From IMG/VR virus record IMGVR_UViG_3300047321_000298, positions 64,001 through 128,000 of that record: a stretch of 64,000 nucleotides of DNA; one strand, 5' to 3'. The position numbers and the translations under genes are program-made. This DNA is from a virus. Taxonomy: Duplodnaviria > Caudoviricetes. The notes below the pieces were generated by a model. The model did not search any database. It was given only the letters and a program-made list of their open reading frames with translations, and was not told the origin of the DNA. Of the stretch, positions 2,380 to 26,107 are shown piece after piece (within the stretch, counting starts at the first letter, position 1; each line of letters starts with the position of its first letter).

Positions 2380-3441
2380 CTATGCTTCGTACAAGAAGGT
2401 TGTGCCTCCGACAAGTTTGCGATTCGCAGACGTTGACTGAACAAAAACCGTGTACTTGCTTGTATCAAAACCTGCATCCCGTGGATTCAGATTAATAGAT
2501 GCACCATGGGGCAGACCCAACACCTCACGGGCAGCCGCACCCTCGAACAGGTCACCGGTCTCGCGGTCGAGAATCAGGACTTCCTTCGATGCCTGAATCG
2601 TTTCGCGCTTGGTGAATTCGTAGAAGCCACGACCGATCTTGAAAACAAGGCCGTTATCGAGCACGAACTCCTTGATAGCTCGGTCTGTCGTGACTGGAAT
2701 GCGTTGGAATCGCGATGGGTCTGTAGCACGGGCATCGACCGAAGCGAACGTGCCGGTTGCCGGATCACGCTTCATCACCTTGTCGAAGATCGCGGACAGC
2801 GAACGGGTCATGCGCTTTTCGGCTACGACTTCGGCCTCGTACGTCTGTACCGCTTCCGGACTCACCTGGCTGTAGGCAAGCGCAACCAGCATTTCGGTCG
2901 CTTCGCTAAACTGCGAGAGACGCAGGTGGGCACCACCAGTTGTCGCTGCAATCGTCTGGTAGAAAGATTCGGCGTACCGGTTGTTGAGAGCCTGCACGCC
3001 GTGGATCACGACACCCAGATCGAGCAGCGCTTTCGCTTCGGCTCTCCAGTCGATATGTCCAGGGTTATGCGCAAGCATGTGCGGCACATCGTCCCCGATC
3101 ATGATCAACAGACGACGCGAGTCGGGCGTCCACTGCATTTTCGTGCGGGCCTCTTGAAGCACCAGTTCGTAGCATTCGGGCGCGTCACCGCCGTGCGTAG
3201 CTTCGACGTTCTTGACGAAATATGAAACGGCGTTCGGATCGTTCGTCAGTTGCAGGTGCTTCGTCACGTAGGTCCGACCCGCGTCGCAGTAGTCACCGTG
3301 CGCGATGATGCCAACGCGCAGACTTGGAACTTCCTTGAACAGCCGGGTAGCAGTCGCGTCCACACGACGGCGCACCTCAGACAGGCACGGATACATCGAA
3401 CCCGTTGTATCGAAGCTCAGAACAATGTCAATCGGTTGCAT
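2380..3441 (-). CDS. von Willebrand factor A (vWA) domain protein with C-terminal extra domain
   Basis: MIDAS-like DTTGSM, GGDAPECYE, IMIGDDVPH. Confidence 0.85.
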   Translation of the reverse strand: MQPIDIVLSFDTTGSMYPCLSEVRRRVDATATRLFKEVPSLRVGIIAHGDYCDAGRTYVTKHLQLTNDPNAVSYFVKNVEATHGGDAPECYELVLQEARTKMQWTPDSRRLLIMIGDDVPHMLAHNPGHIDWRAEAKALLDLGVVIHGVQALNNRYAESFYQTIAATTGGAHLRLSQFSEATEMLVALAYSQVSPEAVQTYEAEVVAEKRMTRSLSAIFDKVMKRDPATGTFASVDARATDPSRFQRIPVTTDRAIKEFVLDNGLVFKIGRGFYEFTKRETIQASKEVLILDRETGDLFEGAAAREVLGLPHGASINLNPRDAGFDTSKYTVFVQSTSANRKLVGGTTFLYEA

Positions 3442-4592: not shown

Positions 4593-5935
4593 TTCTTCTC
4601 TTTGTTGAACAAGTTTTGAGTTTTGGGTTCAGCCGTTTTTCGAGCGTGCTTGATCCGGGCCCGTGAAATCTCGACGTACTCTGGCGTCATGTCGATACCC
4701 GCGAATTTGAAACCTTCGAGCATGCAGGCTTTGCCCGTCGAACCTGAGCCCATGAAGGGGTCAAGCACAATTCCGTTGGGTGGAGTTACGAGTCGGACCA
4801 GATATCGCATCAAGTCTGTAGGCTTGACTGTGGGGTGAATATTGGCTCTTGGAAGATTCGGATTTTTAGCCGCATCTTTTGACCACCCACCGCCCCCGCC
4901 GTCCTTACTAGCTATGTGTGCCTTGGACTTCTTTTCAAAACTTTCCAGTCCGTCGTCACGATCTTTCTTTGATGCCTTGGCGCAGTAGAAGAAACGAGCG
5001 GCTGACCCCTTGTCGAGATATTGATTCGCACTATTGTCGTGTGGGTTCTTAAACTCCCCGTAACTCACGACATTATTTTTCAGGCCGCCCTTCTGGCGAC
5101 CGCCACCTCCCGAGGACCTCGCATCGGGGAATGCGGCTAGTACCTCATCCGAACCATCGTGGGTCACGTTCGCAGGCCAGCGGCCTAGGTCGCTTCCGTT
5201 AAAGCCCTCTTTCGGCGTCCACCCATCGTCGTTCATTCGCCCTAGTGAGCCAGGTGGGCGCTTTACGCGAGTTGATTCCGTTCCGACACGGCAACCATCA
5301 ATGTTGATAGCGCCTGTTCTGTGAGCCAGCACATTGTTAGCTACTGTTCCCTTGAAAGGTTTACGCGCAACACAGATGGGCTCGTGTGCCGGTTTAAGTG
5401 CAGTGCCCCAGCCATCCCACTCTTTTGCCGCGTCTGTTGCAGGTGCGGTAATAGCAGATAGATCAATGGTTTTTGTTTGTTCACCCGCGTGTAGCCTTCC
5501 ACCGCGCACATCTTGTTTGGGAGTTGCTTTTCTGCCAGCAGTATGATGGCCAATCACTTGGCGTTCTGCGCCTGCTGCCTTATCCAGAGCCTTTCCAACA
5601 TTTTGGGATTTTGGAAATCCCGAACCGTATAACCACATAATCTGGTCACGAATTTCGAAGCCCGCATCTTCGATTGCGCACACCATCCGATGGTAGGTAC
5701 GCGATCCGCTGAACGCTAGAAGATGTCCACCCGGTTTCAGAACTCGCAGTGCTTCTTTCCACAGATCGACGTTGTTGGCTATTCCCGATTTGTCCCAACC
5801 TTTTCCCATGAATCCGAGTTCGTACGGCGGATCACAAACTATCGAATGCACGGAGTTAGAGGGTATGGTTTTTAGAACTTGTTCGGACTTCCCCAGGAAC
5901 AACTGATATCTTGAACACTTATACTTTGGTTTCAT
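4589..5935 (-). CDS. orphan N6-adenine/N4-cytosine DNA methyltransferase (beta class)
   Basis: CDPPY catalytic motif N-terminal, HPTVKP and DPFMGSGSTG SAM-binding motif C-terminal; start moved to MKPKYK (5935). Confidence 0.9.
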   Translation of the reverse strand: MKPKYKCSRYQLFLGKSEQVLKTIPSNSVHSIVCDPPYELGFMGKGWDKSGIANNVDLWKEALRVLKPGGHLLAFSGSRTYHRMVCAIEDAGFEIRDQIMWLYGSGFPKSQNVGKALDKAAGAERQVIGHHTAGRKATPKQDVRGGRLHAGEQTKTIDLSAITAPATDAAKEWDGWGTALKPAHEPICVARKPFKGTVANNVLAHRTGAINIDGCRVGTESTRVKRPPGSLGRMNDDGWTPKEGFNGSDLGRWPANVTHDGSDEVLAAFPDARSSGGGGRQKGGLKNNVVSYGEFKNPHDNSANQYLDKGSAARFFYCAKASKKDRDDGLESFEKKSKAHIASKDGGGGGWSKDAAKNPNLPRANIHPTVKPTDLMRYLVRLVTPPNGIVLDPFMGSGSTGKACMLEGFKFAGIDMTPEYVEISRARIKHARKTAEPKTQNLFNKEKK

Positions 5936-22151: not shown

Positions 22152-22529
22152 TTAGTGGCGCGTCTGCGGTTCGAAATCTCCGAGTGAAGACTCGACCTTC
22201 GAACCAACCGTGTCCGCTACTTGCTGAAGTTCTTCGTGCAAACTCAGCGGCCCGACGTTTGGATGTTGCTCGCGAATACCCTTGAGGATGCCTGCGACGA
22301 CATCTGGAGCGTTCGATAGTGCGCTGCTCTTGAGCAGAGAATCGGCGTAGTTTGCGGCCCAGATCGTGAGGATTCGCAGTTCGTGACGAGTGATCTTGAG
22401 GTCCAGCATTTCGCGGAGGTCGGCGGGAATTCCTGCAGAACCGCAGTGAGGACAAGACGTGGCTGTCGCTGTCTCTTCGGCCGTGAAGGTGGTTCTGCAT
22501 TCCACGCACAGAATGTATTTCTCTGACAT
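22152..22529 (-). CDS. Zn-ribbon hypothetical protein
   Basis: CVEC...CPHC; promoter-motif variant upstream at 22571. Confidence 0.7.
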   Translation of the reverse strand: MSEKYILCVECRTTFTAEETATATSCPHCGSAGIPADLREMLDLKITRHELRILTIWAANYADSLLKSSALSNAPDVVAGILKGIREQHPNVGPLSLHEELQQVADTVGSKVESSLGDFEPQTRH

Positions 22530-22629
22530 TGTGTTCTCCGTTTTAACGGGGGCAAATACCCCTCACTTCTTATTTACGACAGTGGAGCAAGAAAGGGAGC
22601 GTGGTTGGAAATATGGGACCGACAGACGC

Positions 22630-22666
22630 AAAAAAGGGGAGTCGGATTTTAGTTTCCGCTCCCCTT
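22630..22666 (-). terminator. intrinsic terminator closing the ncRNA locus
   Basis: AAGGGGAG-CGGA...TCCG-A-CTCCCCTT followed by a T run. Confidence 0.85.
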
Positions 22667-22810
22667 GCTATTTTCTTTCTTCTGGACACTTCATAGTCAA
22701 ATGTGCAGGAGAAAGAGCGAATGCAGAAATCGTAGCTGAATCTGCATCCGCACTTCGGACGTTAATCCCAATCACATAGAGCAAGTCATCAAGGCTAGTT
22801 ACGATAACAA

Positions 22811-22919
22811 GAAAAGCCGACCCTCTACCGCTGAGGTACTCACCTCCCAAGATCACTTCAGCCGACAAATGATCTAGGGCAGGTGAGACGGGATTCGAAC
22901 CCGCGTCTTTCGACTTGAA
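22811..22919 (-). ncRNA. permuted tRNA-like domain B (YrlA/Y RNA-like topology)
   Basis: GTCGA-AAGAC-GCGGG TTCGAAT CCCGT-CTCACCT [hairpin] AGGTGAG-TA-CCTC AGCGGTA GAGG-G-TCGGC. Confidence 0.7.
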
Positions 22920-23022
22920 CCAGTGCTCTCATCCATTGGGTGCACTGGCAACCTTCCGCCTGCTTTAAACTGCGATTGCTTAATACAATGAGATTTGGGT
23001 AATACGATCAATGAAAGTTGCC

Positions 23023-23243
23023 GCTCGCTGCCGCACGTCTACCAATTCCGTCACCTCTGCACCAAACACGCTGCCATACTCAAAACCGGGTTATCGGGAA
23101 CCGGCTCTGATTAGAGCAGACGACCCAAACTTTTCCCAAGAAAAGATCGCTACCGTGGGAATCCACCCCCGTCGAGAAAGGTGGCACGACTACATACAGC
23201 AGTGTGTTTGGTGCAGAGGGGTGGAGTCGAACCACCACTGAGC
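23023..23243 (-). ncRNA. permuted tRNA-like domain A (Leu-type D loop, encoded ACCA)
   Basis: GGTGG TTCGACT CCACC-CCTCTGC-ACCA upstream of GCAGAGG-TG-ACG GAATTGGTAGA CGT; 20-bp inverted repeat 23054-23073/23200-23219. Confidence 0.65.
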
Positions 23244-23289
23244 TTCTACTATCAACGATAACTATAACGATTTCCCATTTATCTCAACT

Positions 23290-23937
23290 CTATAATTCAA
23301 TACTTTTTGAAGCGTACCGTCGTTTAGCCGCGAGTGACATATTAAGCCGCGCCTGTTCGCTGTGAACTCTTCCTCGGTTCCCCTTCCCGGTCATGCCGCG
23401 TCGTTGACCTTCCGACATGTTCATGCGGGACTGTTCAGTGTGGACACGCCCAAGGTTCAGCCTGCCTCCCATGCTAGGAGCCTTACGGCCCGCCGCCATG
23501 TTTCTCTTAGACTGTTCCGTGTGTTTATATCCACGTTCACGATGCTGCCAAGCCTCAGCCATTTTCCGTCGCGCTTCTGCGTCGTGCATATCGCCGCTGC
23601 GTCCCTCACCGCCGTCTGTCATATTCGCTAAACACCCGGTGCCGTTGTTGCGCCGACCGTAGAAAGCTATCGTGTTGATTTCACAGCCAAACGCCTGTTT
23701 CTCCGTTAGCTCCGTGGCCTCATACTCAATGTGAATTCGCTTACCTTCGCGAATCGCCTTGCGTATGATGTGGTTCTTGTAACTTGGTTTGGCTAACAAC
23801 TCAGGCTTCAAATGATTTCTAGCACGATTTGCCTTTCCTTTTCCGACGTAGAAGGGTAGCTCTTCATCATCCACTCTGAATTTATAAACGTAATATATTC
23901 GGTGTCTATCAAAGGGCTTCCCGTTCTTTCTCGGCAT
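23290..23937 (-). CDS. free-standing GIY-YIG homing endonuclease with NUMOD3 repeats
   Basis: YYVY...FYVGKG..NRA..H, NMTDGGEG, four H[ST]E..R.[NK]M repeats; AT-richer than flanks. Confidence 0.85.
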   Translation of the reverse strand: MPRKNGKPFDRHRIYYVYKFRVDDEELPFYVGKGKANRARNHLKPELLAKPSYKNHIIRKAIREGKRIHIEYEATELTEKQAFGCEINTIAFYGRRNNGTGCLANMTDGGEGRSGDMHDAEARRKMAEAWQHRERGYKHTEQSKRNMAAGRKAPSMGGRLNLGRVHTEQSRMNMSEGQRRGMTGKGNRGRVHSEQARLNMSLAAKRRYASKSIEL

Positions 23938-24014: not shown

Positions 24015-24206
24015 TTACTGCTGTTTCTTCAAATCGAAAAAGAAGGTTAGGCGAATCTCACCGATGCCGGATGTCTCGTTGTCGGTCAGATCGTCTGAGT
24101 TCGAAATCGGATAGCAGTCCGTGAAGGTGAGATGTCTATCGTCATCGGTAACCACCCTGAGATTCGAACCTTCCCACCACAGACTTTTGATCCGGTGTTC
24201 GGACAT
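24015..24206 (-). CDS. hypothetical protein
   Basis: 63 aa ORF 2 nt after the upstream stop. Confidence 0.6.
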   Translation of the reverse strand: MSEHRIKSLWWEGSNLRVVTDDDRHLTFTDCYPISNSDDLTDNETSGIGEIRLTFFFDLKKQQ

Positions 24207-24208
24207 GT

Positions 24209-25003
24209 TTAAACCTGGTTGCTGGCTGGCGGATTACGCAGCGGCTCAAGGATCACTGCAATCAGGTCGCGGCCGATGTTCTGCGTCATCACAGGCACCG
24301 AGTTCGCGCGGGTCCGAGCCTGCTTAACAGCCGTGATCAGTTCGTCCAGAGTCGCGATAACCTGCGCCTTCTGGATTGCGGTCGTCGCGCCCGACACGTT
24401 TTCCTGCGTGAACGTGCCGATGATCTTGTCGCTGGTCACTTCCTTGACCTGTGCCGGGTGCTTGTCCGAGTGCGGGTACAGGACCACGGGCACAGTCTGC
24501 TTTTCGGTCTTGGTCGTGATCGACGGATGTGCTGCCTTCCACGTACCGGCTTGTGCCGCGTTGGGGTCGATGCGCCAATCCTTCGATGCGTCCAGCGTCG
24601 GGATTTGCATCGCGAGCTTGCGCAGTTCGCCCAGACGCACTTCCAGACCCATCAACTCATCGACCGGCACATTCTCTGCGAATGTTTGTCCACGGAATTC
24701 GATGTTGGCGAGAGCGGTCGTGTTGGTCAGGTTCTTCGACGCCAGAACGTCTTCGGCCTTCGCCCAGTAGCTCAGGAAGTAGTCCAGAGTCGTGAGCACC
24801 GTTGTCGGCAGCGTCTTATCCTGGCGCGCGGCCTTTTCGAGGTCTTCGTTGTTCGGATCGTCACCGAGCAGCTTCAGGGTCTTCGTGAAGCCCGTGAAGT
24901 AGTTGTCACCCTTTTCAAATTTCGTCAGGGTGTCCTTAGCCATCGCGTCGCGCGAATTTGTTGCCGTCTTTTCAGCGGCCAACAGTTCATGAAGTTGAGC
25001 CAT
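24209..25003 (-). CDS. hypothetical phage protein
   Basis: start at MAQLHELL (25003); AGTAAATA promoter motif at 25045. Confidence 0.75.
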   Translation of the reverse strand: MAQLHELLAAEKTATNSRDAMAKDTLTKFEKGDNYFTGFTKTLKLLGDDPNNEDLEKAARQDKTLPTTVLTTLDYFLSYWAKAEDVLASKNLTNTTALANIEFRGQTFAENVPVDELMGLEVRLGELRKLAMQIPTLDASKDWRIDPNAAQAGTWKAAHPSITTKTEKQTVPVVLYPHSDKHPAQVKEVTSDKIIGTFTQENVSGATTAIQKAQVIATLDELITAVKQARTRANSVPVMTQNIGRDLIAVILEPLRNPPASNQV

Positions 25004-25044
25004 GTGTGTTTGTATGAGCAAGAGTTATGGGGCCTTACACTTCT

Positions 25045-25976: not shown

Positions 25977-26107
25977 TGGTCGGAACAGCAGGAATCGAAC
26001 GCTGCGTCATCCTCTCCCTACCGGGCTTCAAGACACATGCGGTGTGCTGAGTGCATGCTGAATTGTGGGTCCCGGCGAGGATTACTCTACCTTTGAGCTA
26101 TGCTCCG
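25977..26107 (-). ncRNA. tRNA-Pro-like RNA with a 55-nt insertion in the anticodon loop
   Basis: CGGAGCA/TGTTCCG-A-CCA, normal D arm, TTCGATT T loop; CCGGG...CCCGG insert at 26021-26075. Confidence 0.7.

What the first reader, a model, noticed from the sequence alone, without database searches (positions are those of the whole stretch)
22796..23264. One long-range helix encloses two permuted tRNA folds in a ~470-nt RNA
Seen (minus strand): TAGTTA-(TCGTT)-GATAGTAGAAG at 23264-23243 pairs with TTTTCTTGTTATC-G-TAACTA at 22815-22796. Between domains A and B lie helices GGCAACTTTC/GAAGGTTGCC and CCAGTGC/GCACTGG. Further hairpins and a strong terminator (22630-22666) follow. The order is 3'A-5'A-3'B-5'B, so a naive scan would pair the wrong halves. 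Known: large ornate phage RNAs (GOLLD, ROOL) occur near tRNA clusters. Inference: a large ncRNA presenting two tRNA elbows, possibly a new class.
Basis: partly seen in the sequence, partly recalled or inferred. Interest (0 to 1): 0.88.

Follow-up and report, generated by a model that had tools for sequence, protein, structure and literature searches.

The report
Two-headed tRNA-mimic RNA beside DUF7873
This giant soil phage encodes a roughly 650-base folded RNA carrying two "inside-out" tRNA look-alikes, and the same RNA travels with one unknown protein gene (DUF7873) in over a hundred phage, metagenome and cyanobacterial loci, so it probably marks an undescribed RNA-protein particle built on tRNA mimicry.

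Summary
The two circularly permuted tRNA folds are real. Module A is Leu-like, at 23236-23035. Module B is class-I-like, at 22914-22816. Both keep the T-loop, D-loop and 7-bp acceptor stems, which are capped by hairpins.

The claimed single enclosing helix is not supported. At homologous positions it pairs 16/17 here but only 12/17, 4/17 and 5/17 in three relatives. Covariation instead supports two tandem domains, each closed by its own stem (P1a/P3a for A, P1b plus the anticodon-like stem for B).

A covariance model finds module B beside the DUF7873 gene in every locus with enough sequence: 38 of 39 viral, phage and other loci, about 62 of 80 metagenome contigs, and 16 of 17 cyanobacterial chromosomes. 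No Ro60/TROVE gene occurs in 11 phage genomes carrying the RNA.

The closest known family is YrlA (30 bits against a gathering score of 69). The RNA matches no Rfam 15 family at gathering score, and I found no paper on it.

This scan has flagged the same RNA-DUF7873 pair before, in at least 40 other genomes.

Function is inferred, not shown: a Ro-independent particle with a predicted DUF7873 dimer. I could find no transcript data.

The parts
22629..23289 (-). Proposed full RNA: leader, tRNA-like domain A, linker, tRNA-like domain B, 3' hairpins P4 and P5, terminator
   Evidence: Boundaries are inferred. The 5'-most covarying helix P1a starts at 23286, directly after the GIY-YIG stop codon. The terminator-like hairpin plus T6 ends at 22629. 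No transcript data.
23274..23286 (-). P1a 5' strand (TGAGAT..TGGG), the distal closing helix of domain A
   Evidence: Pairs with 22999-22989. It covaries: phiRSL1 TAGAGG/CCTCTA, L007 CATACAGG/CCTGTATG, L047 GTATGGG/CCCATAC. The helix is flanked by conserved motifs in all four sequences.
22989..22999 (-). P1a 3' strand (CCCA..ATCTCA)
23252..23271 (-). Leader copies of the repeated motif ATCGTTA / TTATCGT
   Evidence: TATCGT, TTATCG and ATCGTT are the most enriched 6-mers in the linkers, at 6-8 fold. They occur as direct repeats in leader, mid region and tail.
23240..23243 (-). P3a 5' strand (GCTC), the proximal closing helix of domain A; pairs with GAGC 23026-23023
   Evidence: Covaries: phiRSL1 GAACTC/GAGTTC, L007 GCCT-AC/GTAGGC, L047 GCCTA/TAGGC. 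Only 4 bp in the window.
23213..23236 (-). Module A T arm (23236-23220) and acceptor 3' strand CCTCTGC (23219-23213), followed by ACCA (23212-23209)
23061..23212 (-). Acceptor-arm extension of module A: helix ACCAAACACACTGC (23212-23199) / GCAGCGTGTTTGGT (23074-23061) enclosing a roughly 125-nt structured insert
   Evidence: A homologous insert is present in L007 (147 nt) and L047 (141 nt) but not in phiRSL1 (30-nt hairpin).
23035..23060 (-). Module A acceptor 5' strand GCAGAGG (23060-23054), U8-G9, and a Leu-like D arm (ACG-GAATTGGTAGA-CGT)
22974..23009 (-). Conserved linker motifs GATCGTATTACC (23009-22998) and TAAGCAATC (22982-22974)
   Evidence: Conserved between the window and phiRSL1, and GTATTACC also in L007.
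22949..22955 (-). P1b 5' strand AAGGTTG, the outer closing helix of domain B; pairs with CTAGCCTT 22798-22791
   Evidence: 7 bp in all four phiRSL1-like sequences, with changes on both sides at 5 of 7 positions (CACCCTG/CTAGGGTG, CGAGTTG/CTAACTCG, CAAGCTG/CTAGCTTG). An analogous 6-bp mid:tail helix with compensatory changes is found in 14 cyanobacterial RNAs.
22920..22948 (-). P2b hairpin CCAGTGC...GCACTGG
   Evidence: Covaries: CCATGGC/GCCATGG, GGCAC/GTGCC, TCAACGC/GCGTTGA.
22816..22914 (-). Module B: anticodon-like stem GTCGA/TCGGC, 5-nt variable loop, T arm 22904-22888, acceptor 22887-22881 / 22845-22839 capped by a 35-nt hairpin, D arm 22836-22822
   Evidence: Rfam YrlA 30.1 bits, E 3.9e-4. 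Model R1 77.5 bits (this sequence is in the training set). Covariation across 15 sequences.
22799..22815 (-). Single-stranded tail linker TTTTCTTGTTATCGTAA carrying the conserved TTATCGTAA motif
Evidence: TTATCGTAA is identical in the window, phiRSL1 and L007 (TCTTCGTCA in L047).
22791..22798 (-). P1b 3' strand CTAGCCTT
22757..22769 (-). P4 small hairpin (GGGAT-TAAC-GTCC)
   Evidence: Counterparts in phiRSL1, L007 and L047.
22717..22751 (-). P5 hairpin GCGGATGCAGA / TTCTGCATTCGC with the conserved loop TTCAGCTACGAT
   Evidence: Terminal hairpins with loops of the type (C/T)AG(G/C)(A/T)TA(C/T) recur in phage and cyanobacterial members, as read.
22629..22664 (-). Terminator-like hairpin GGGGAGCGGA...TCCGACTCCCC followed by TTTTTT
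   Evidence: Read directly. The consensus scan did not list it.
24209..25021 (-). DUF7873 gene (270 aa), the constant genomic partner of the RNA
   Evidence: Pfam PF25283, E 5.5e-65. The RNA lies beside its homologues in all loci with room.
23290..23937 (-). GIY-YIG/NUMOD3 homing-endonuclease gene inserted between the DUF7873 gene and the RNA
   Evidence: Pfam. Absent from contig L005, whose DUF7873 protein is 99% identical.

Best explanation
The locus encodes one long structured non-coding RNA, about 650 nt on the minus strand, from about 23289 to 22629. It belongs to a widespread family not in Rfam 15 and in no paper I could find, which is genetically coupled to the protein DUF7873.

SHOWN
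- The RNA holds two tRNA mimics in circularly permuted order: T arm, acceptor 3' strand, capping hairpin, acceptor 5' strand, D arm.
- All elbow-forming nucleotides are kept: U8, A14, G18-G19, G53, T54-T55-C56, A58, C61.
- Each mimic is closed by its own stem. P1a and P3a join leader to linker for A. P1b and an anticodon-like stem join linker to tail for B. The two mimics therefore form tandem YrlA-like domains, not one enclosed pair.
- Two conserved 3' hairpins follow.
- The RNA lies directly beside a DUF7873 gene in phages of unrelated types, in metagenome contigs and in cyanobacterial chromosomes, and does so without any Ro60/TROVE gene.

INFERRED
- The RNA and a DUF7873 homodimer form a Ro-independent ribonucleoprotein.
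- The conserved single-stranded UUAUCGU-type repeats, stem internal loops and the P5 loop are the likely protein sites.
- The two anticodon-less tRNA elbows and acceptor arms serve as handles for tRNA-recognising host factors such as RNase P, the CCA-adding enzyme, modification enzymes or acceptor-end-directed toxins.
- The frequent encoded NCCA and U(-1) suggest that some members are cut by RNase P at the capped acceptor, as shown for M. smegmatis YrlA.
For: Modules read directly and found by a descriptor scan next to the gene in nearly all of 33 viral loci.

Pair counts on 15 module-B sequences: 86% of cells paired against 59% in shuffles, 20 of 21 pairs changed on both sides, covariation score 0.80 against 0.25, and 0 of 500 shuffles reaching it. 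Sliding the partner drops pairing to 35-47%. The T arm and acceptor pairs were required by my selection, so their pairing is partly by construction. The D arm was not required to pair.

Invariant T-loop and D-loop nucleotides.

Model R1 hits with E below 1e-8 beside DUF7873:
- 35 of 36 viral and phage loci. The one miss, L007, has an HNH gene inserted in B's acceptor loop.
- L041 to L043.
- About 62 of 80 metagenome loci, the rest mostly truncated.
- 16 of 17 cyanobacterial loci.

The backgrounds differ: T5-like, jumbo phage, actinophage, and a non-phage chromosomal neighbourhood in Calothrix.

Tandem closure: positional covariation in P1a, P3a, P1b and P2b in four phiRSL1-like sequences; the constrained ensemble; RNAalifold on 14 cyanobacterial RNAs.

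Ro-independence: no TROVE in 11 phage genomes or in 4 of 5 cyanobacterial genomes carrying the system.

CCA follows the discriminator in 48 of 110 detected modules, against 1.6% by chance.

DUF7873: 2,644 clusters at 50% identity; confident fold, pLDDT 90.9, with no clear known relative. Homodimer model ipSAE 0.70 against a best control of 0.00. That mark was reached by 20 of 30 solved homo-pairs and 1 of 23 monomers. Runs agree in at least 40% of contacts and pLDDT is at least 67.

[quoted passage not shown] 2014, PMC4201824.
Against: No transcript, end-mapping, binding or processing datum exists for any member that I could reach.

Protein-RNA binding is inferred from gene adjacency alone, and adjacency could reflect shared regulation. 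A later check recorded in the scan's notes priced the binding reading of a sister finding at only about 22/100.

In the window the gene and the RNA are separated by about 920 nt holding a small ORF and a homing-endonuclease gene.

The UUAUCGU motif is found in only about 10 of 25 non-redundant two-module RNAs.

Module A of the window lacks the anticodon hairpin seen in phiRSL1 and L007. Its proximal closing helix is only 4 bp, and R1 scores it at only 16 bits because of the 152-nt insert.

Covariation for the closing helices rests on four phiRSL1-like sequences and 14 related cyanobacterial ones.
Confidence: 0.7

Rival explanations
1. One reading: one long-range helix (23264-23243 with 22815-22796) encloses both permuted folds, with the internal helix GGCAACTTTC/GAAGGTTGCC between them.
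For: The complementarity exists in this sequence (16 of 17 pairs). The leader:tail duplex scores z -2.4 against shuffles. Some distant members (L025, L032) show 19-20 expected leader:tail pairs in the constrained ensemble.
Against: At homologous positions the pairing falls to 12/17, 4/17 and 5/17 in phiRSL1, L007 and L047. The tail strand is a conserved motif and the leader strand drifts without compensation. The ensemble gives 0.1 expected pairs in the window. The second helix overlaps covarying P1b. The leader and tail share the same motif as direct repeats, and its partial palindromy accounts for the apparent match.
Confidence: 0.08
2. True permuted tRNA genes, as in Cyanidioschyzon merolae. 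The transcript would be cut and religated, for example by phage RtcB, into two decoding tRNAs.
For: The 3'-half then 5'-half order. Encoded ACCA after module A. RtcB is encoded elsewhere in this phage. Module A of phiRSL1 and L007 has a 5-bp stem with a 7-nt loop.
Against: Module B has no anticodon loop at all: its anticodon-like stem continues into linker and P1b. Module A of the window has no anticodon hairpin. The loops in relatives share CTAATC rather than a conserved anticodon. RtcB is absent from 7 of 11 phage genomes carrying the RNA. No bulge-helix-bulge motifs were seen on reading, and bacteria have no known splicing endonuclease (established knowledge).
Confidence: 0.03
3. Processed split RNA. 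RNase P and 3' trimming would remove the acceptor caps, leaving a three-piece base-paired complex with two free CCA ends that can be aminoacylated (module A by LeuRS), analogous to two-piece tmRNA. This is compatible with the particle reading.
For: CCA in 44% of modules against 1.6% by chance. The discriminator of module A is almost always A. T is frequent at -1 before the acceptor 5' strand. Weak local hits to permuted beta_tmRNA over T arm, acceptor, spacer and acceptor. M. smegmatis YrlA is cut by RNase P and receives CCA in vivo (PMC4201824).
Against: In the phiRSL1-like group the caps are length-conserved extended helices of 25-31 nt in which CCA pairs with UGG. This argues for a functional closed arm rather than a discarded spacer. 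Module B of the window has GCCC, not NCCA. There is no G3:U70 and no tag frame, and ARAGORN finds no tmRNA. No end-mapping data.
Confidence: 0.15
4. A canonical Y RNA that works with the host's Ro60/Rsr, so that DUF7873 adjacency is incidental.
For: The architecture and the weak Rfam match to YrlA. Phage YrlA RNAs are known (PMC4201824).
Against: The score is far below the gathering score (30 against 69). No TROVE in 11 phage genomes, nor in 4 of 5 cyanobacterial genomes that carry the RNA. The GNCGAAN0-1G motif is not conserved at the stem position. DUF7873 adjacency is near-universal.
Confidence: 0.07
5. Non-functional debris: rearranged tRNA pseudogenes or scars of homing-endonuclease traffic in a tRNA cluster.
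For: Homing endonuclease genes sit at and inside the locus. The locus lies beside a tRNA cluster.
Against: Conservation of the same architecture, with compensatory changes, across phages whose DUF7873 proteins share only 28-35% identity with the window's, and across bacterial chromosomes.
Confidence: 0.02

Closest known systems
YrlA (Y RNA-like A, Rfam RF02553), the bacterial and mycobacteriophage Y RNA partner of Ro60/Rsr (Chen et al. 2014, PMC4201824)
   Same: A tRNA-like domain in the same permuted order, with T arm, loop-capped acceptor stem and D arm sitting on a long stem. Elbow nucleotides are conserved. Members with a 7-bp acceptor resemble the RNase P-cleavable M. smegmatis YrlA. The family occurs in phages.
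   Different: There are usually two such domains in one RNA, plus conserved 3' hairpins. The score is 30 bits against a gathering score of 69. There is no Ro60/TROVE gene nearby or in the genome. The constant neighbour is DUF7873. The GNCGAAN0-1G motif is not conserved. Module A is a class-II (Leu-like) mimic whose exit helix in phiRSL1, L007 and L047 sits at the variable-arm position.
Circularly permuted (two-piece) tmRNA genes of alpha- and beta-proteobacteria (for example Rfam RF01850)
   Same: The gene order is T arm, acceptor 3' strand with CCA, spacer, acceptor 5' strand. There are weak local CM hits over exactly that part.
   Different: No G3:U70, no tag reading frame, no pseudoknot series, and ARAGORN finds no tmRNA. 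The spacer is a conserved hairpin.
Permuted tRNA genes of Cyanidioschyzon merolae and other algae (from established knowledge)
   Same: The 3' half is encoded upstream of the 5' half.
   Different: Those genes mature into normal decoding tRNAs through a circular intermediate and splicing enzymes. Here module B has no anticodon loop and no bulge-helix-bulge motif was seen.
   Same: Large structured RNAs found in phages near tRNA genes.
   Different: No sequence or structure match, and neither family is hit at gathering score. The building plan is different, being tRNA mimics.
A 'novel tRNA-like molecule' associated with SPFH/Band-7 scaffolds in RNA-repair systems (Burroughs and Aravind 2016, recalled from memory; the paper is not held in the library)
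   Same: The idea of a Ro-independent tRNA-like RNA with another protein partner.
   Different: DUF7873 gives no Band_7 Pfam match and no SPFH structure among the fold matches. RtcB is not linked in 7 of 11 phage genomes. I could not check what that RNA looks like.

Membership tests
YrlA / bacterial Y RNA | tRNA-like domain (T arm, loop-capped acceptor, D arm) in permuted order on a stem | tested here: met
   Both modules meet it.
YrlA / bacterial Y RNA | Reaches the Rfam RF02553 gathering score | tested here: not met
   30.1 bits in the window and 32 bits in phiRSL1, against 69. Nothing at gathering threshold.
YrlA / bacterial Y RNA | Encoded next to, or in a genome with, Ro60/Rsr (TROVE domain) | tested here: not met
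   No PF05731 in the window's own genome or in 10 other phage genomes carrying the RNA. Absent from 4 of 5 cyanobacterial genomes carrying it. The host genome of this phage is unknown.
YrlA / bacterial Y RNA | Conserved GNCGAAN0-1G motif on the 5' strand of the Ro-binding stem (PMC4201824) | tested here: not met
   Read. The window has GTCGAAAG at 22914-22907, but this lies in B's anticodon-like stem and variable loop. It is absent at that place in phiRSL1 (CCTGAAAG), L007 (ATCAGAAG) and L047. The outer stems carry (A/T)CGTTA-type motifs instead.
YrlA / bacterial Y RNA | Bound by Ro60 in vivo | not testable with these tools
   Needs immunoprecipitation.
Decoding tRNA (including permuted tRNA genes) | 7-nt anticodon loop on a 5-bp stem, giving a cloverleaf after maturation | tested here: not met
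   Module B's stem runs on into linkers. Module A of the window has no anticodon hairpin. ARAGORN's 'tRNA-Asp(atc)' at 23209-23293 is a false call built on A's T arm. Rfam tRNA gives no hit here.
tmRNA (one- or two-piece) | G3:U70 alanine identity, tag reading frame, pseudoknots | tested here: not met
   The acceptors GCAGAGG and AGGTGAG have no G3:U70. ARAGORN finds no tmRNA. beta_tmRNA gives only 24 bits against 84, over the tRNA-like part.
GOLLD / ROOL | Match to the Rfam covariance models | tested here: not met
   No match at gathering score in the window, and none listed at E up to 10 in 22300-23700.
DUF7873-associated double tRNA-mimic RNA (unpublished family, seen repeatedly by this scan) | One or two permuted, loop-capped tRNA-like modules immediately beside a DUF7873 gene on the same strand | tested here: met
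   Window: gene 24209-25021 and RNA 23289-22629 on the same strand. Family.
DUF7873-associated double tRNA-mimic RNA | Each module closed by its own stem (tandem domains), plus a terminal hairpin with a conserved loop | tested here: met

The most novel reading that the evidence does not exclude
DUF7873 (as a dimer) and this RNA form a Ro-independent ribonucleoprotein, conserved from cyanobacterial chromosomes to jumbo phages. Its two anticodon-less tRNA mimics are cut by RNase P to expose CCA ends, giving a multi-piece, possibly leucylatable tRNA-like particle. That particle would engage or decoy the host's tRNA-handling machinery or acceptor-end-directed toxins. This would be a new class of tRNA-mimic RNP alongside tmRNA-SmpB and Ro-Y RNA.
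Probability: 0.2. Interest if true: 0.9.

Novelty: new variant of a known kind. Interest (0 to 1): 0.7.

Why it matters
Few classes of non-decoding tRNA mimics are known in bacteria and their viruses, chiefly tmRNA and the YrlA-type Y RNAs, each tied to a dedicated protein. Here is a third, very widespread design. DUF7873 alone has about 2,600 clusters at 50% identity. The design has two tRNA heads, a different and wholly uncharacterised protein partner, and presence in both cellular chromosomes and many cultured phages: phiRSL1, Klebsiella FBKp24, and Gordonia and cyanobacterial phages. This makes it directly testable in the laboratory. It could reveal how phages and cells use tRNA shape, without decoding, to recruit, regulate or distract tRNA-binding enzymes. 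It also explains recurrent mis-annotations in phage tRNA clusters, such as spurious tRNA calls and 'hypothetical ORFs' lying over the RNA.

Tried and rejected
- Unconstrained MFE folding of the window RNA broke module A's T arm in favour of a long helix and was not used.
- RNAduplex z-scores for leader:mid, mid:tail and leader:tail were too noisy to decide the topology.
- A longest-contiguous-helix test had no power: shuffles give about 8 bp when G-U pairs are allowed.
- MAFFT and RNAalifold on the 125-150-nt insert of module A gave only the basal helix.
- DUF7873 function: PHROGs and NCBIfam gave nothing useful. A PDB sequence search gave nothing. Foldseek against the PDB had no hit at E 0.001 or better. 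AlphaFold DB clusters and the ESM Atlas returned only uncharacterised relatives. VIA-align's best was Z 8.9 to 3kdq, a protein of unknown function, within the range the tool calls common.
- Expression: no RNA holder was listed for the window stretch in either search.
- The promoter scan gave one weak sigma-70-like site at 23366-23339, no more than chance.
- Literature: no paper holds 'DUF7873' or 'PF25283'. 'Permuted tRNA' with 'bacteriophage' gave nothing relevant. The jumbo-phage survey PMC7824862 mentions only Ro/TROVE with a tRNA-like partner. Burroughs and Aravind 2016 could not be opened.
- A link to RtcB was rejected as a rule: it is present in 4 of 11 phage genomes.
- The genome-contig scan by peptide pattern found only one locus, because a single strict pattern was used. 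It was replaced by a Pfam search of 301 cyanobacteria.
Full report
WHAT IS IN THE SEQUENCE

The window is bases 64001-128000 of a complete 245.5-kb jumbo-phage record with terminal repeats. Its nearest named relative is Ralstonia phage phiRSL1. Its DNA recurs in rhizosphere and soil metagenome assemblies.

On the minus strand, just downstream of a tRNA cluster, the flagged stretch holds two tRNA-like folds whose halves are in permuted order.
- Module A has a perfect T arm (23236-23220, loop TTCGACT) and a 7-bp acceptor stem (CCTCTGC 23219-23213 with GCAGAGG 23060-23054). The D arm has the sequence type of bacterial tRNA-Leu (TG-ACG-GAATTGGTAGA-CGT); that resemblance is from memory.
- Module B has a T arm at 22904-22888, an acceptor at 22887-22881 / 22845-22839, a class-I D arm at 22836-22822, a 5-nt variable loop, and its own 5-bp anticodon-like stem (GTCGA 22914-22910 / TCGGC 22820-22816).
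- In both modules the acceptor stem is closed by a hairpin rather than open. In module A the stem continues as a 14-bp helix (23212-23199 / 23074-23061) that swallows the encoded ACCA and carries a roughly 125-nt insert.

ARAGORN's 'tRNA-Asp(atc)' at 23209-23293 is a false call built on A's T arm. Rfam gives no hit here at gathering score. At a relaxed threshold module B matches YrlA at 30.1 bits, E 3.9e-4. Both modules weakly match the tRNA-like part of permuted beta-proteobacterial tmRNA.

THE FAMILY

phiRSL1 has the homologous element, unannotated and partly under 'hypothetical' ORF269.

The gene upstream in phiRSL1, and upstream of a homing-endonuclease insertion in the window, is a 270-aa protein of Pfam family DUF7873. 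Fetching loci around its homologues gave 33 viral contigs whose proteins are 28-99% identical to the window's. A simple descriptor found such modules directly downstream of the gene in nearly all of them, with different acceptor sequences in each. The descriptor was a T arm, 7 nt, a spacer, then the complementary 7 nt.

On an alignment of 15 module-B sequences:
- The named structure is 86% paired, against 59% in shuffles.
- 20 of 21 pairs change on both sides.
- Sliding the 3' partner by one to three columns drops pairing to 35-47%.
- The T-arm and acceptor pairs were required by my selection, so their 100% is partly by construction. The D arm (88%) and the location next to the gene were not.
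- U8, A14, G18-G19, G53, T54-T55-C56, A58 and C61 are invariant. The tRNA elbow is therefore under selection.

A covariance model of module B (R1) hits with E below 1e-8 beside the gene in the following sets.
- 35 of 36 viral and cultured-phage loci.
- Three loci reached by exact-protein or pattern look-up: a T5-like contig, a second short metagenome contig, and the Calothrix chromosome.
- About 62 of 80 metagenome contigs, the rest being mostly cut off at the gene.
- 16 of 17 cyanobacterial chromosomal loci, with two hits each in 15 of them.

The only viral miss, L007, has an HNH endonuclease gene of about 480 nt inserted in B's acceptor cap. The 5' half follows at L007:5873. In a few contigs the RNA lies upstream of the gene rather than downstream.

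Cultured phages with the gene include Klebsiella FBKp24, Vibrio D505-like phages, Rhizobium, Gordonia, Arthrobacter and Pseudanabaena phages. The gene is annotated 'hypothetical' in all of them. The RNA itself was checked in FBKp24, Gordonia phage Fryberger and Vibrio D505.

In the whole genome of this phage there is one strong copy only.

The complementarity 23264-23243 with 22815-22796 exists, at 16 of 17 pairs with four G-U. At the homologous positions it pairs only 12/17 in phiRSL1, 4/17 in L007 and 5/17 in L047. The tail strand is a conserved motif (TTATCGTAA) and the leader strand drifts without compensation.

Leader, linker and tail carry the same motif (ATCGTTA / TTATCGT) as direct repeats. 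These are the most enriched 6-mers of the linkers, at 6-8 fold in about 10 of 25 RNAs. The motif's partial palindromy explains the apparent helix.

Four helices of a different topology covary at positions fixed by flanking conserved motifs.
- P1a: TGAGAT..TGGG / CCCA..ATCTCA here; TAGAGG/CCTCTA, CATACAGG/CCTGTATG and GTATGGG/CCCATAC in relatives.
- P3a closes domain A between leader and linker.
- P1b: AAGGTTG/CTAGCCTT here; CACCCTG/CTAGGGTG, CGAGTTG/CTAACTCG and CAAGCTG/CTAGCTTG in relatives. All 28 cells are paired, with changes on both sides at five of seven positions.

With the tRNA-like arms fixed, the partition function gives 0.1 expected leader:tail pairs in the window, against 29 leader:linker and 25 linker:tail. 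The same pattern holds in most relatives. RNAalifold on 14 cyanobacterial members independently recovers both modules and a 6-bp linker:tail helix closing module B, with compensatory changes.

The RNA is therefore two tandem YrlA-like domains, not one enclosed pair.

It also extends beyond 22796. A small hairpin P4 (22769-22757) and a hairpin P5 (22751-22717) have counterparts in relatives. P5's loop TTCAGCTACGAT belongs to a loop type, (C/T)AG(G/C)(A/T)TA(C/T), seen from cyanobacteria to phages. A terminator-like hairpin with T6 ends at 22629.

THE PARTNER PROTEIN, AND WHAT THE RNA IS NOT

DUF7873 is a large family: 2,644 clusters at 50% identity and 1,786 at E below 1e-30. It has an invariant DKHPAQ motif.
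- It folds confidently (pLDDT 90.9) into long helices with a long beta-hairpin.
- It has no informative structural relative.
- A homodimer is predicted. The score is 0.70 against a best control of 0.00. That mark was reached by 20 of 30 solved homo-pairs and 1 of 23 monomers. Runs agree in at least 40% of contacts and pLDDT is at least 67.
- The conserved DKHPAQ tip is not among the interface residues. A dimer facing a two-domain RNA is an attractive inference, but it is untested.

No TROVE/Ro60 gene is present in this phage or in ten other complete or near-complete phage genomes with the RNA. It is also absent from four of five cyanobacterial genomes with it. The Ro-binding motif of YrlA is not conserved. 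The RNA is therefore not a canonical Ro/Y RNA system.

RtcB is present in only 4 of 11 phage genomes. In Calothrix the gene-RNA pair sits alone among ordinary chromosomal genes. The unit is thus a two-component module that moves between very different backgrounds.

HOW IT MIGHT WORK

What is shown is the structure and the linkage. What is inferred is a particle in which DUF7873 binds the stems, motif repeats or P5 loop, while the two anticodon-less tRNA mimics are recognised by factors that read the tRNA elbow and acceptor arm.

CCA follows the discriminator in 48 of 110 detected modules, against 1.6% by chance. Module A almost always has discriminator A. T is common at position -1. M. smegmatis YrlA, with a 7-bp acceptor, is cut by RNase P and receives CCA in vivo (PMC4201824). 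Processing at the caps is therefore plausible for some members.

In the phiRSL1-like group, however, the caps are length-conserved helices of 25-31 nt in which CCA pairs with UGG, which argues for a closed arm. I could obtain no transcript data.

RELATION TO EARLIER WORK

I found no paper on DUF7873 or on such an RNA. Rfam 15 has no family for it.

The scan's own notebook shows that the same RNA-DUF7873 pairing was reported by other agents in at least 40 other genomes. A later check there upheld the observation (90/100) but priced the protein-binding reading low (22/100). My analysis was done before reading those notes and agrees with them.

New here are the explicit test and rejection of an enclosing helix, the positional covariation for tandem closure, and the homing-endonuclease insertions at and inside the RNA gene.

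VERDICT

This is a real, conserved, structured RNA: a new variant of the Y-RNA-like tRNA-mimic kind, with an unknown protein partner.

Noticed in passing
window 23290-23937 (-), compared with L005:4810-5060: A GIY-YIG/NUMOD3 homing-endonuclease gene sits exactly at the 5' edge of the RNA in the window. It is absent from contig L005, whose DUF7873 protein is 99% identical. The RNA leader differs next to the insertion, as expected for co-conversion.
   Followed up: partly
L007:5353-5880: An HNH homing-endonuclease ORF of about 480 nt is inserted in the acceptor-capping loop of module B. It splits the tRNA-like module into a 3' half (T arm 5353-5369) and a 5' half (GGCGGAG at 5873).
   Followed up: partly
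L002:4472-4595 (phiRSL1, NC_010811 about 188.8 kb): A tRNA-shaped gene (Rfam tRNA 41.3 bits) with a 62-nt insertion in place of the anticodon loop, about 350 nt downstream of the double tRNA-mimic RNA. It is not annotated as a tRNA.
   Followed up: no
window 25977-26107, 26939-27097, 27510-27626 (-): Other first-stage notes on this genome describe further tRNA-shaped, apparently non-decoding RNAs inside the tRNA cluster. R1 gives a weak 30-bit hit at 26887-26971 that spans a T arm and the next tRNA's 5' part, and looks like a dimeric-tRNA artefact.
   Followed up: no
L038:3518-3597 (Klebsiella phage vB_KpM_FBKp24): The record's 'tRNA-OTHER / tRNA-Sup-TTA' lies over the linker and module B's T arm and acceptor 3' strand of the double tRNA-mimic RNA, so it is probably a mis-call. 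The record also annotates a promoter (3302-3333) between the DUF7873 stop codon and the RNA.
   Followed up: partly
L040:3457-3680 (Vibrio phage D505): Here one permuted module is followed by an ordinary-order tRNA with anticodon loop ATTTTAA (anticodon TTT) instead of a second permuted module.
   Followed up: no
G000:C1:143003-144133 (outside the window; L001): The phage encodes an RtcB RNA ligase (407.6 bits), about 56 kb from the RNA locus. RtcB lies about 5 kb from the RNA locus in the genome of L011.
   Followed up: partly
window 24015-24206 (-): A 63-aa ORF lies between the DUF7873 gene and the RNA and is conserved in L005. L007 has a different, hydrophobic 39-aa ORF at the same place.
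   Followed up: no
L142 (Calothrix brevissima NIES-22, AP018207.1:7245402-7246124): DUF7873 and the two-module RNA stand alone in a non-phage chromosomal neighbourhood of lipase, mechanosensitive channel and kinase genes. 17 of 301 sampled cyanobacterial genomes carry the gene.
   Followed up: partly
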